Shown: positions 42,785 to 44,688 of the stretch, in pieces
Layout: each line of letters starts with the position of its first letter
Numbering within the stretch: position 1 is the first letter of the stretch
IMG/VR virus record: IMGVR_UViG_3300007512_001664
Span: 96,001-160,000 of that record
From: a virus
Lineage: Duplodnaviria; Caudoviricetes
Reading direction: 5' to 3' (one strand)
Length of the DNA: 64,000 nt
The notes under the pieces: generated by a model
The model's database searches: none
Told to the model about the DNA's origin: nothing
The model's input: the letters and a program-made list of their open reading frames with translations, nothing else
Made by a program: the position numbers and the translations under genes

Positions 42785-43769
42785 TTTTAATATACCACAT
42801 TATAGTATATTTTAAATCATCGGCAAATGTTTTTTTAGTTTCAGAAAATTCTAATTGATCTCCTGCTTTAATTATCATCGATTTATATATTGAATCACTT
42901 AAGCTATATCTAAGATCATGACCTTTCCTATCCTCAGCAAAACTAATTAATTTTTTAGGTTTATCGAGTATGTCTAATATGAGATTTACAATTTCAATAT
43001 TAGGTATTTCCGATTGATAGTGCGAGTCAGGAGCAAGGTTATATATTGTTCCTGAGGTTCCTAGTTTTAATACGTTATATATTTTTTCGCAATGATCTTT
43101 GACGTATATCCATTGACGTATGTTATCACCTTTACCATATACCGGTATCTGTTCGTCGTTAGTAGCTTTTTGAGCGATAACTGGAATAAGTTTCTCGGGG
43201 TATTGCCTAGGACCAAAATTATTTGTACATCTCGTTACGATAATATCTTTCTTATATGTTTTATGAAAAGATAATGCTAATAAATCAGCGCCTGCTTTTG
43301 TTGCAGAGTATATAGAAGATGGTTCTAATAAGTCATCCTCTTCACTAGGGTTCGAATCAAATTGTAAACTACCATATACTTCATCTGTCCCTACTTGGAG
43401 AAATCTCGTATTGTCAGGTAATTGTTTTAATAATTCATACACACCTACATAATTACTATCAATAAAAACATCCCCGTCGTTAATACTATTATCTACGTGT
43501 GATTCAGCTGCGAAATTTACAATATAATCATATTGTTTATCCAATTTAAAATCCGAGACACTTACATATATTATATCTAATTTATTACTAGACCCATCCG
43601 GGTGCTTATATAAATCCCATAGATAATCTTCAGTGTTCTGTGATACACAATAGGCATAACTATCTATTATTGTTACATTACAGTTTTCACATTCACGGTG
43701 AAGTAGCTCTACGAAATGACTTCCAATGAATCCCAAGCCACCTGTTACTAGGATGTTTTTATCTTTCAT
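42765..43769 (-). CDS. rmlB: dTDP-glucose 4,6-dehydratase
   Basis: GGLGFIG, FAAESHVDNS, TDEVYG, YSATK, NNFGPRQYPEKLIP, DRKGHDLRY. Confidence 0.95.
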   Translation of the reverse strand: MKDKNILVTGGLGFIGSHFVELLHRECENCNVTIIDSYAYCVSQNTEDYLWDLYKHPDGSSNKLDIIYVSVSDFKLDKQYDYIVNFAAESHVDNSINDGDVFIDSNYVGVYELLKQLPDNTRFLQVGTDEVYGSLQFDSNPSEEDDLLEPSSIYSATKAGADLLALSFHKTYKKDIIVTRCTNNFGPRQYPEKLIPVIAQKATNDEQIPVYGKGDNIRQWIYVKDHCEKIYNVLKLGTSGTIYNLAPDSHYQSEIPNIEIVNLILDILDKPKKLISFAEDRKGHDLRYSLSDSIYKSMIIKAGDQLEFSETKKTFADDLKYTIMWYIKNEKWWN

Positions 43770-44688
43770 CTGCTATTTCTTTAGTAAAATATGTTTCTTT
43801 TTTACCTAATATTCTAAATAGTGATTCTCGTTCCGTTGGCATATCTAACCCACGTGCTTTTAATTTATCTATTGATAAAACGCAATTAGATCTATTAGCA
43901 ACAATATGTTGTTTTAATTCATTGTAAGTAATAAACTTCCAATGAGGATTCCACAAACCATGCTCATCTAAAATGCTACAAACTTCAGATGTTTGAAGAG
44001 GTTCAGGGTTTACGCAATTATAAACACCACCGGGTAAGTCTTCGATGTTAACTATTTTATTAATTACGACTAGTAAATCCTCAATAACAGTTTTAGAGTT
44101 TACATCGTTTAAGACGTTATTGTATTTTAAAATCTTACTTAAGTAGTTTTTTTGTGAATTAAAATCATTACAAATAGGCATTCTTATGCGTAGAGTATAA
44201 ACATTGCCAAAGTTGTTTAAACATAATTCTGCTGCATGTTTTGTCTTACTATACCAACTACTATCAGGGTTAGTTAACCCGAAATTTGGCTCGTCTTCTT
44301 CAGTAAATGATACTGTGTCAAGCACGTCTAATGTATCATATATACACCCGGAACTTACATTAATAAGTTTCGCGTTATGTTGAGTACAGAATTGAGCTAA
44401 CATAGTAGGTAGTGTTACGTTCAAATCCCAGCATGTTTGTTTTTGTTCTTCACATGCGTCTACATTTGGAGAACCAGTAAAACCAACACAATTAATTACC
44501 CATTTGTTTTGTGATCCTCGGAACTCGGTTATTAAATTAGTAAATAATGTTTCTTTTAACTTTTCGGGTGAAGTATATGGATAGTTCGACAAGCGAACTA
44601 CATCGTATATACCTTCTAAGTTCTCTTCAAAATGCTTATAAGCCTTCTTCCCAATATAACCGTTACCTAAGACAATTATTTTATTCAT
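43759..44688 (-). CDS. NDP-4-keto-6-deoxyglucose 3,5-epimerase/4-reductase (RmlD superfamily, NRS/ER-type)
   Basis: GNGYIG; GFTGSPNVDAC, SSGCIY, SWYSKTK, LRIRMPI, GVYNCVNP match the bifunctional plant NRS/ER-type pattern as I recall it. Confidence 0.8.
   Translation of the reverse strand: MNKIIVLGNGYIGKKAYKHFEENLEGIYDVVRLSNYPYTSPEKLKETLFTNLITEFRGSQNKWVINCVGFTGSPNVDACEEQKQTCWDLNVTLPTMLAQFCTQHNAKLINVSSGCIYDTLDVLDTVSFTEEDEPNFGLTNPDSSWYSKTKHAAELCLNNFGNVYTLRIRMPICNDFNSQKNYLSKILKYNNVLNDVNSKTVIEDLLVVINKIVNIEDLPGGVYNCVNPEPLQTSEVCSILDEHGLWNPHWKFITYNELKQHIVANRSNCVLSIDKLKARGLDMPTERESLFRILGKKETYFTKEIADER

What the first reader, a model, noticed from the sequence alone, without database searches (positions are those of the whole stretch)
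43759..44688. RmlC-independent rhamnose pathway: plant/giant-virus-type bifunctional epimerase-reductase
Seen: rmlA and rmlB but no rmlC in the window. The RmlD-like ORF carries GFTGSPNVDAC, SSGCIY, SWYSKTK and LRIRMPI. From memory these match plant NRS/ER (GVTGRPNVDWC, TGCIF, SFYSKTK, LRVRMPI) and giant-virus homologues better than canonical bacterial RmlD. Inference: one enzyme performs both the 3,5-epimerisation and the 4-reduction, so three genes suffice.
Basis: partly seen in the sequence, partly recalled or inferred. Interest (0 to 1): 0.65.

Follow-up and report, generated by a model that had tools for sequence, protein, structure and literature searches.

The report
Phage bifunctional rhamnose synthase, no RmlC
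A 200-kb ocean phage carries a plant/giant-virus-type enzyme that most likely performs the last two steps of rhamnose-sugar synthesis alone, so three genes do the work of the usual bacterial four; the same shortcut proves common in related phages and in Verrucomicrobia/Planctomycetes bacteria, where I found no description of it in the papers I could search.

Summary
ORF 43759-44688(-) (309 aa) is not a canonical RmlD: it scores 45 bits on the rmlD model, whose cut-off is 224. Its best solved relatives are Arabidopsis NRS/ER (4QQR, E 2e-36) and Mimivirus L780 (7JID, E 3e-19). RmlD structures score about E 1e-3. The reductase triad (Ser113, Tyr146, Lys150) is present. So is the Cys115/Lys185 pair, which matches the mutagenesis-validated L780 Cys108/Lys175. 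Both sets are invariant in 62 phage, 73 bacterial and 3 fusion homologues, whereas E. coli RmlD has Tyr and Thr at the Cys/Lys positions.

The gene overlaps a bacterial-type RmlB, and an RmlA lies 11 kb away. The complete 200,819-bp phage genome has no RmlC cupin and no canonical RmlD.

In Verrucomicrobiota and Planctomycetota the homologue sits in NRS/ER-rmlB-rmlA operons, and its presence goes with absence of RmlC (Fisher p 3e-4).

The likely route is a hybrid: a dTDP-type front end and a "eukaryote-type" bifunctional finish. Activity, nucleotide preference, product stereochemistry and the glycan acceptor are untested.

A deeper phage clade carries the enzyme without RmlA or RmlB. This scan flagged the same arrangement in two other phage genomes.

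Novelty: new variant of a known kind. Interest 0.5.

The parts
43759..44688 (-). NRS/ER (UGER)-type NDP-4-keto-6-deoxyglucose 3,5-epimerase/4-reductase, 309 aa (P0001)
   Evidence: Best PDB sequence matches are 4QQR (E 2e-36) and 7JID (E 3e-19), against about 1e-3 for RmlD; the profile search agrees. The AF2 model (pLDDT 89.5) has 7JID and 4QQR as top Foldseek hits. The rmlD equivalog scores 45 bits against a cut-off of 224. GxGxxG, Ser113, Cys115, Tyr146, Lys150 and Lys185 are invariant in the family.
42765..43769 (-). RmlB-type NDP-glucose 4,6-dehydratase, 334 aa (P0002); its start overlaps the stop of the NRS/ER gene by 11 nt
   Evidence: TIGR01181 scores 316 bits (cut-off 365). Best PDB matches are dTDP-glucose 4,6-dehydratases 6BI4 and 2HUN (E 1e-70), with Mimivirus R141 (6VLO) lower at 1e-43. 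The TDE and YxxxK catalytic motifs are present. The thymine-stacking Tyr (DesIV Tyr208) is conserved (PMC9741107). It is adjacent to the NRS/ER gene in 24 of 24 close relatives with enough flank.
31783..32676 (+). RmlA-type glucose-1-phosphate thymidylyltransferase, 297 aa (P0289)
   Evidence: TIGR01207 scores 302 bits (cut-off 361). It matches E. coli and Salmonella RmlA structures at E 1e-78, against 1e-18 or weaker for GalU-type enzymes. It is 49% identical to E. coli RfbA. It co-occurs with RmlB and NRS/ER in 8 of the 9 records of the subclade, the ninth being a 21% fragment.

Best explanation
P0001 is a bifunctional SDR enzyme of the NRS/ER (UGER) family. It takes the NDP-4-keto-6-deoxy-D-glucose made by the adjacent RmlB, which acts on the product of the phage RmlA (most likely dTDP-glucose). 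It epimerises C3 and C5 using Cys115 and Lys185 as acid/base, then reduces C4 with NAD(P)H through the Ser113/Tyr146/Lys150 triad, giving NDP-beta-L-rhamnose. The phage therefore makes activated rhamnose with three genes and without RmlC or RmlD. The sugar is presumably handed to phage-encoded glycosyltransferases. What is shown: family membership, conserved catalytic residues, absence of RmlC/RmlD from the complete genome, operon linkage and comparative co-occurrence. What is inferred: the activity itself, dTDP as carrier, L-rhamnose as product, and the acceptor.
For: Sequence: 4QQR E 2e-36 and 7JID E 3e-19 against RmlD at about 1e-3. The family profile gives 180, 123 and 54 bits respectively. 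E. coli RfbD shows no significant BLASTP match. The rmlD equivalog scores 45 bits against a cut-off of 224.

Fold: the model has pLDDT 89.5, and L780 and NRS/ER are the top Foldseek hits.

Residues: Cys115 and Lys185 align with L780 Cys108 and Lys175, which PMC9614988 reports as confirmed by mutagenesis. They are invariant in 62 phage, 73 bacterial and 3 fusion homologues, while E. coli RmlD has Tyr and Thr there.

Genome: the complete phage genome has no PF00908 and no rmlD-level hit.

Context: RmlB overlaps the gene and is adjacent in 24 of 24 close relatives. The RmlA+RmlB+NRS/ER trio is present across the subclade, and RmlC occurs in 1 of 30 related viral records.

Bacteria: 55 of 79 loci have rmlB and rmlA beside the gene, usually in the order NRS/ER-rmlB-rmlA, and none has rmlC or rmlD within the flanks held, up to 10 kb each side. 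RmlC is missing from 25 of 30 such genomes. Canonical RmlD is above cut-off in 2 of 30. In 151 Verrucomicrobiota genomes, RmlC occurs in 5 of 17 carriers against 101 of 134 non-carriers, p 2.7e-4.

Fusions: RmlA-NRS/ER, RmlB-NRS/ER and GT-NRS/ER proteins exist.

Carrier: L780 accepts both dTDP- and UDP-substrates (PMC9614988).
Against: There are no biochemical data for any phage or bacterial member. The host is unknown and could supply RmlC. One related phage record (G006) does carry an intact RmlC-like gene 28 kb away. Five of 17 Verrucomicrobiota carriers also have RmlC. RmlA and RmlB both score below their NCBIfam equivalog cut-offs, so the substrate nucleotide is not certain. A large sister clade of phages has the enzyme without RmlA or RmlB, so its ancestral role need not be a self-contained pathway. 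The stereochemistry of C4 reduction (rhamnose versus 6-deoxy-talose) cannot be read from sequence. The genome association is not corrected for phylogeny.
Confidence: 0.8

Rival explanations
1. P0001 is only a 4-reductase (functionally an RmlD), and the 3,5-epimerisation is done by a host RmlC.
For: It matches the Pfam RmlD_sub_bind domain. RmlC is common in bacteria: 11 of 14 controls and 106 of 151 Verrucomicrobiota. One related phage and some carrier bacteria have both genes.
Against: It scores 180 bits below the rmlD cut-off. It is far closer to the two proven bifunctional enzymes. The Cys/Lys pair needed only for epimerisation is invariant across 138 homologues and absent from E. coli RmlD. 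RmlC is depleted in carrier genomes.
Confidence: 0.07
2. The enzyme is a bifunctional or partial epimerase/reductase that yields another 6-deoxyhexose, for example 6-deoxy-L-talose, or a 3-epimerised product as with Megavirus Mg535, rather than L-rhamnose.
For: Family members with altered specificity exist: Mg535 is a 3-epimerase/4-reductase (PMC9614988). The phage clade is only about 25-40% identical to characterised enzymes. The phage genome carries several other sugar-modifying SDRs.
Against: The partner is a retaining RmlB-type dehydratase, not an inverting PseB/CapE-type one (PseB model 16 bits), so both C3 and C5 must be inverted to reach an L-sugar. All residues shared by the two rhamnose-forming structures are kept. 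Bacterial homologues sit in otherwise classical rmlA-rmlB operons.
Confidence: 0.08
3. The gene is kept mainly for a role other than glycan building. One possibility is draining host dTDP-4-keto-6-deoxyglucose into dTDP-rhamnose to shut down host RmlA by feedback and spare dTTP for replication. Another is supplying a sugar for DNA modification.
For: It occupies a fixed slot in the replication module (gp32 ... NRS/ER ... FEN-primase) across a broad phage lineage. In most distant members it stands without RmlA or RmlB. A small glycosyltransferase and 7-deazaguanine genes are always nearby. Feedback inhibition of RmlA by dTDP-rhamnose is recalled from memory, not checked here.
Against: This phage encodes its own RmlA and RmlB, which would consume dTTP rather than spare it. 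Some close relatives insert a GT34-like transferase inside the operon. The genome holds GT2-type transferases and a glycan island. No rhamnosylated DNA is known.
Confidence: 0.05

Closest known systems
Arabidopsis thaliana NRS/ER (UER1), PDB 4QQR; also the C-terminal domain of plant RHM
   Same: It is the best sequence match (E 2e-36; profile 4e-52). It shares the same SDR fold, the same Ser/Thr-Tyr-Lys triad and the Cys115/Lys183 positions. It is a single-domain enzyme that needs no cupin epimerase.
   Different: The phage protein is encoded with a bacterial-type RmlA and RmlB (dTDP-type) rather than a UDP-glucose dehydratase. Its N-terminal 50 residues are divergent. Sequence identity is only about 26-28% over the structural alignment. 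It has not been characterised biochemically.
Acanthamoeba polyphaga mimivirus L780 UDP-L-rhamnose synthase (UGER), PDB 7JID
   Same: It is the top structural match (Foldseek E 2e-19, TM 0.80-0.85). It is viral. Its catalytic Cys108 and Lys175, validated by mutagenesis, align with Cys115 and Lys185. It accepts both UDP- and dTDP-substrates (PMC9614988).
   Different: It comes from a giant virus of eukaryotes and partners with the UDP-glucose dehydratase R141, with no nucleotidyltransferase of its own for this route. The phage enzyme is closer to PVC-bacterial homologues (31-37% identity) than to L780.
Bacterial RmlC (cupin 3,5-epimerase) plus RmlD (4-reductase) of the RmlABCD pathway
   Same: The same overall chemistry and the same upstream enzymes (RmlA, RmlB). 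RmlD shares the SDR fold and the Tyr-Lys pair.
   Different: These are two proteins instead of one. RmlD has Tyr and Thr where the phage enzyme has Cys115 and Lys185. The phage protein fails the rmlD equivalog cut-off (45 against 224 bits), and the genome has no RmlC.
NRS/ER-type genes of Verrucomicrobiota and Planctomycetota (four Verrucomicrobia homologues were noted by Yin et al. 2011, PMC3220709)
   Same: They are the nearest cellular relatives. They have the same invariant residues and the same linkage to rmlB and rmlA, with rmlC absent.
   Different: They are bacterial chromosomal operons. The phage sequences form their own clade. In the phage, RmlA is unlinked, and RmlB is of a different, shorter subtype (30-39% identity to the PVC RmlB).
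GDP-L-fucose synthase (Fcl/GMER/WcaG)
   Same: It is a mechanistic analogue: one SDR enzyme performs 3,5-epimerisation with a Cys-based acid/base and then 4-reduction. It was the template used to identify the L780 catalytic residues (PMC9614988).
   Different: It belongs to a different SDR subfamily, acts on a GDP-mannose-derived substrate, and was not a significant sequence hit here.

Membership tests
NRS/ER (UGER) bifunctional NDP-4-keto-6-deoxyglucose 3,5-epimerase/4-reductase | Closer in sequence to characterised NRS/ER and L780 than to RmlD | tested here: met
   phmmer: 4QQR 129 bits, 7JID 73 bits, best RmlD 22 bits. Profile: 180, 123 and 54 bits.
NRS/ER (UGER) bifunctional NDP-4-keto-6-deoxyglucose 3,5-epimerase/4-reductase | Extended SDR fold with an N-terminal GxGxxG dinucleotide site and a Ser/Thr-Tyr-Lys reductase triad | tested here: met
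   Gly8, Gly10, Gly13, Ser113, Tyr146 and Lys150 are invariant. AF2 model pLDDT 89.5; top Foldseek hits are 7JID and 4QQR.
NRS/ER (UGER) bifunctional NDP-4-keto-6-deoxyglucose 3,5-epimerase/4-reductase | Cys and Lys acid/base pair for C3/C5 epimerisation (L780 Cys108 and Lys175; the matching Arabidopsis positions are Cys115 and Lys183) | tested here: met
   Cys115 and Lys185 align to these residues (PMC9614988). They are invariant in 138 homologues; E. coli RmlD has Tyr and Thr.
NRS/ER (UGER) bifunctional NDP-4-keto-6-deoxyglucose 3,5-epimerase/4-reductase | Operates without a cupin RmlC in the same genome or pathway | tested here: met
   No PF00908 in the complete phage genome. It is found in 1 of 30 related viral records and is absent from 25 of 30 carrier bacteria. 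The host genome is unknown.
NRS/ER (UGER) bifunctional NDP-4-keto-6-deoxyglucose 3,5-epimerase/4-reductase | Converts NDP-4-keto-6-deoxy-D-glucose to NDP-beta-L-rhamnose with NAD(P)H in vitro | not testable with these tools
   This needs an enzyme assay.
Canonical RmlD (dTDP-4-dehydrorhamnose reductase, TIGR01214) | Score at or above the equivalog cut-off (224 bits) | tested here: not met
   45 bits. BLASTP against E. coli RfbD gives E 0.04.
RmlB (dTDP-glucose 4,6-dehydratase, TIGR01181), for the neighbour P0002 | Equivalog score; TDE and YxxxK catalytic motifs; thymine-stacking Tyr | tested here: inconclusive
   316 bits against a cut-off of 365. The motifs are present. The Tyr equivalent to DesIV Tyr208 is present. 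Best PDB matches are all dTDP-glucose dehydratases. The nucleotide preference is not proven.
RmlA (glucose-1-phosphate thymidylyltransferase, TIGR01207), for P0289 | Equivalog score; similarity to characterised RmlA rather than GalU | tested here: inconclusive
   302 bits against a cut-off of 361. RmlA structures match at E 1e-78 against 1e-18 or weaker for GalU. It is 49% identical to E. coli RfbA.

The most novel reading that the evidence does not exclude
The NRS/ER-type gene is an old, fixed resident of the replication module of a broad marine T4-like lineage. It is always accompanied by a small unexplained glycosyltransferase and by 7-deazaguanine genes, and in most members it has no RmlA or RmlB. 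On this reading its 6-deoxyhexose product is used to decorate the phage's modified DNA, or otherwise serves replication, rather than building a virion or cell-surface glycan. That would be a new kind of DNA hypermodification.
Probability: 0.05. Interest if true: 0.9.

Novelty: new variant of a known kind. Interest (0 to 1): 0.5.

Why it matters
Textbooks and surveys split rhamnose synthesis in two: RmlABCD in bacteria, archaea and phages, and UGD/UGER or RHM in eukaryotes and giant viruses. One survey reported the two routes as mutually exclusive (bioRxiv 10.1101/854612).

Here a hybrid appears, with RmlA and RmlB followed by a UGER-type finisher. It occurs in at least 574 IMG/VR viral contigs and at least 588 bacterial stretches, from one genome per species, mostly Verrucomicrobiota and Planctomycetota, with Akkermansia among them.

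If the activity is confirmed, four things follow:
- Genome surveys that require RmlC and RmlD miss rhamnose producers.
- The evolutionary origin of the plant RHM/NRS-ER domain becomes testable against a large bacterial and phage sister group. In 2011 only four bacterial homologues were known.
- Phages would have a one-gene way to turn a common host intermediate into rhamnose.
- A compact three-enzyme route would be available for making dTDP-rhamnose.

Tried and rejected
- Canonical RmlD membership: rejected, 45 bits against a cut-off of 224.
- A UDP-type giant-virus pathway: not favoured. RmlA and RmlB best match dTDP enzymes, and the thymine-stacking Tyr is present.
- Cultured-phage relatives: tblastn against 50,697 GenBank phage records gave only two weak hits, and megablast of the region gave none. 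TerL is only 36% identical to T4-like cyanophage proteins.
- T4 gene-order analogy (32-59-33-dsbA-rnh): could not be verified. The small ORFs have no Pfam or PHROG hits, and the FEN is closer to SPO1-like and flavobacterial phage enzymes. I dropped it.
- A late promoter for rmlA: TATAAATA abuts the ATG, but the motif is not enriched in the window (13 found, 21 expected). No claim is made.
- A rhamnosyltransferase marker (RgpF, PF05045): absent from the genome. GT1 (PF00534) is also absent.
- A tree including eukaryotes: no referenced plant or fungal sequences could be obtained. Cluster look-ups returned unnamed metagenome proteins. The position of the phage and PVC clades relative to eukaryotes is therefore undetermined.
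- Host identity: not resolved.
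Full report
**Setting.** The window is bases 96,001-160,000 of a complete 200,819-bp IMG/VR virus record with direct terminal repeats (CheckV completeness 100). GC is about 32%. Around the finding lie replication and recombination genes, all on the minus strand: primase-like, 5'-3' exonuclease/FEN, gp32, DnaB-type helicase, RecA/UvsX-like, family-B polymerase and an SbcCD-like pair. A T4-type large terminase lies upstream. TerL is only about 36% identical to T4-like cyanophage proteins. Neither the region nor the target protein has a close match among 50,697 GenBank phage records. This is an uncultured marine T4-like jumbo phage.

**Observation.** ORF 43759-44688(-) encodes 309 aa with exactly the quoted motifs. 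Its stop overlaps by 11 nt the start of a 334-aa RmlB-type dehydratase at 42765-43769(-). That gene in turn overlaps the FEN gene. An RmlA-type nucleotidyltransferase lies at 31783-32676(+). No RmlC cupin (PF00908) occurs in the whole genome, although the same search found it in 11 of 14 control genomes. The only rmlD-model hits in the genome are the target itself at 44.6 bits and a weak 20.7-bit match.

**What the protein is.**
- It barely matches RmlD models: Pfam RmlD_sub_bind 48 bits, and TIGR01214 45 bits against a cut-off of 224.
- Against all PDB sequences the best matches are Arabidopsis NRS/ER 4QQR (E 2.2e-36) and Mimivirus L780 7JID (2.6e-19). The best canonical RmlD scores 6.6e-4.
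- A profile of 31 homologues widens the gap: 180, 123 and 54 bits.
- BLASTP against E. coli RfbD is not significant.
- An AlphaFold model (pLDDT 89.5, pTM 0.88) has 7JID and 4QQR as its top Foldseek hits, ahead of the RmlD structures. In the viral structure library the top hits are giant-virus proteins, not phage proteins.

**Catalytic residues.** In the alignments, Ser113, Tyr146 and Lys150 fall on the reductase triad. Cys115 and Lys185 fall on Arabidopsis Cys115/Lys183 and on L780 Cys108/Lys175 (the PDB chain numbering is offset by 3). The review PMC9614988 states that L780 Cys108 and Lys175 were identified as key catalytic residues by comparison with GDP-fucose synthase and confirmed by mutagenesis. 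[quoted passage not shown] In an alignment of 62 phage, 73 bacterial and 3 fusion-protein homologues, all five residues and the GxGxxG motif are invariant or nearly so. E. coli RmlD has Tyr and Thr at the Cys and Lys columns.

**The partners.**
- P0002 scores 316 bits on the dTDP-glucose dehydratase equivalog (cut-off 365). It is closest to dTDP-glucose 4,6-dehydratase structures (6BI4 and 2HUN, E about 1e-70). Mimivirus R141 is lower at 1e-43.
- P0002 has the TDE and YxxxK motifs. It also keeps the Tyr that stacks on thymine in DesIV (Tyr208). According to PMC9741107 that position is His, Gln or Met in UDP-preferring eukaryotic and mimiviral enzymes.
- The nucleotidyltransferase is 49% identical to E. 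coli RfbA. It matches RmlA structures at E 1e-78, against 1e-18 or weaker for GalU.
- The front end therefore looks bacterial and dTDP-type. This is inference, because both proteins fall somewhat below their equivalog cut-offs.

**Relatives in phages.** At least 574 IMG/VR contigs encode a relative. In nearly all of the 80 best loci the gene occupies the same slot: gp32, a few small ORFs, NRS/ER, then FEN and primase, with or without RmlB after NRS/ER. QueC, a glutamine amidotransferase, a small glycosyltransferase and DnaB lie upstream.
- Loci at least 45% identical: RmlB is adjacent in 24 of 24 with enough flank.
- Loci below 45% identical: RmlB is adjacent in only 4 of 40.
- Whole-record searches agree. 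The nine records of the close subclade carry RmlB. Eight of them also carry RmlA, and the ninth is a 21% fragment.
- Records of the distant clade lack RmlA and any RmlB-level match; only weak SDR hits appear in two fragments. They include a 99%-complete 211-kb genome and a 70%-complete one. An 87%-complete record has a bona fide RmlB but no RmlA.
- RmlC occurs in 1 of 30 records. There it is an intact gene 28 kb from the NRS/ER gene.
- In a maximum-likelihood tree the phage sequences fall on one side of a branch (SH-aLRT 83), with the main RmlB-bearing subclade nested inside (98). The enzyme therefore looks older in these phages than its RmlB and RmlA partners. A small basal group (L044, L053, L054) carries a different, more distant RmlB next to the gene. 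The tree is rooted only by one very long RmlD branch, so direction is tentative.
- A distant, RmlB-less phage homologue still hits 4QQR best.

**Relatives in bacteria.** A scan of one genome per species found 588 confirmed matching stretches, and the limit of 600 was reached.
- The best 80 are almost all Verrucomicrobiota (Opitutaceae, Akkermansia, Methylacidiphilum) and Planctomycetota (Pirellula, Stieleria, Fuerstiella, Kuenenia), at 31-37% identity.
- One "archaeal MAG" contig is identical to a viral contig.
- In 55 of 79 bacterial loci, rmlB and rmlA lie beside the NRS/ER-type gene, usually in the order NRS/ER-rmlB-rmlA. RmlB is 44-63% identical to E. coli RfbB, and RmlA is 56-68% identical to RfbA. 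No locus has an RfbC or RfbD match within the flanks held, up to 10 kb each side.
- RmlC is missing from 25 of 30 of these genomes. Canonical RmlD exceeds its cut-off in only 2 of 30, both of which also have RmlC.
- In an even sample of 151 Verrucomicrobiota genomes, 17 carry the NRS/ER type and 106 carry RmlC. RmlC occurs in 5 of 17 carriers against 101 of 134 non-carriers (odds ratio 0.14, Fisher p 2.7e-4). This is not corrected for shared ancestry.
- A Verrucomicrobia homologue also matches 4QQR best.
- Natural fusions link the domain to RmlA (585 aa), to an RmlB-type dehydratase (608-621 aa) and to glycosyltransferase and methyltransferase domains (1,086 aa).
- In a library clustered at 50% identity the family has 826 clusters at E 1e-10 or better.

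**Mechanism.**
- Shown: family membership, conserved active-site residues, absence of RmlC and RmlD, operon linkage, and replacement of RmlC across genomes.
- Inferred: RmlA makes dTDP-glucose. RmlB makes dTDP-4-keto-6-deoxy-D-glucose. P0001 inverts C3 and C5 through Cys115 and Lys185 and reduces C4 with NAD(P)H to give dTDP-L-rhamnose. Phage glycosyltransferases then use it.
- The genome has GT2-type hits at 78,178, 174,469 and 186,873, a weaker one (below the family cut-off) at 46,325, and a GT at window 50541-51242.
- Some close relatives carry a weakly GT34-like 215-aa ORF wedged between NRS/ER and RmlB.
- The acceptor (virion, host envelope or something else) is unknown.

**Literature.**
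- PMC3220709 (2011) found only four bacterial homologues of the NRS/ER domain, all from Verrucomicrobia. It speculated that a prokaryotic integrated epimerase-reductase might have existed.
- A survey (bioRxiv 10.1101/854612) reports the Uger route only in eukaryotes and mimivirus, the rml route in bacteria, archaea and phages, and the two as mutually exclusive.
- My searches found no paper describing an RmlA-RmlB-NRS/ER route in bacteria or phages. The library covers open-access papers only.
- The scan's own index shows first-reader notes of the same arrangement in two other phage genomes.

**Verdict.** The enzyme is a new (phage) member of a known family. The pathway is a new hybrid variant of known routes, and it is widespread. 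Interest is moderate (0.5) until the activity and the acceptor are shown.

Noticed in passing
L004:10911-11558 (also L003, L010, L011, L012, L016, L027): In some close relatives a 215-aa ORF is inserted between the NRS/ER and RmlB genes. It weakly matches GT34 (Glyco_transf_34, 23.4 bits, cut-off 23). This window's phage has no homologue of it. It is a candidate operon-embedded transferase for the product.
   Followed up: partly
L040-L081 (for example L052:9998-10870); records G010-G018 and G021: A deeper clade of marine T4-like phages keeps the NRS/ER-type gene in the same replication-module slot but has no RmlA, no RmlC and no RmlB-level match in the records searched, including a 99%-complete 211-kb genome. 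These phages would have to draw on host NDP-4-keto-6-deoxyglucose.
   Followed up: partly
L069:8937-10858 (also L061, L070, L075): In a differently organised phage group the NRS/ER-type gene directly follows a GMP-reductase/IMPDH-like gene and precedes a gp15 tail-sheath stabiliser. In L069 and L075 the small GT, a GATase-like gene and, in L069, a DUF366 gene lie about 9 kb upstream.
   Followed up: partly
window 50541-53496: QueC, a GMP-reductase-like gene, a glutamine amidotransferase and a small GT (PF13712) form an overlapping gene string next to DnaB. The QueC-GATase-GT part is syntenic with the NRS/ER gene in every related locus whose flank reaches it. The sugar donor of this GT is unknown.
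   Followed up: partly
P0125, P0126, P0127, P0128 (metagenome proteins): Natural fusions of the NRS/ER-type domain exist with RmlA, with an RmlB-type dehydratase (RHM-like, 608-621 aa) and with GT1, methyltransferase and GT2 domains (1,086 aa).
   Followed up: partly
L082:1504-2067 (record G006, about 28 kb from its NRS/ER gene): One related phage record carries an intact 187-aa RmlC-like cupin gene in another region, so the two enzyme types can coexist in one phage.
   Followed up: partly
L083 and L059: Contig NYZO01000029.1, deposited as part of an archaeal MAG (isolate ARS54), is identical to an IMG/VR viral contig of this phage lineage. It is most likely a phage contig binned into the MAG by mistake.
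   Followed up: yes
L087, L092 (Akkermansia MAGs): Akkermansia genomes carry the NRS/ER-rmlB-rmlA operon. The 'udp pathway' signal that bioRxiv 10.1101/854612 reports in human faecal metagenomes and attributes to plant or fungal DNA might come partly from such bacteria. This is inference only.
   Followed up: no
window 31774-31781: A perfect TATAAATA (T4 late-promoter consensus) ends one base before the RmlA start codon. The motif is not enriched in the window (13 found, 21 expected), so this may be chance, or the true start may lie downstream.
   Followed up: partly
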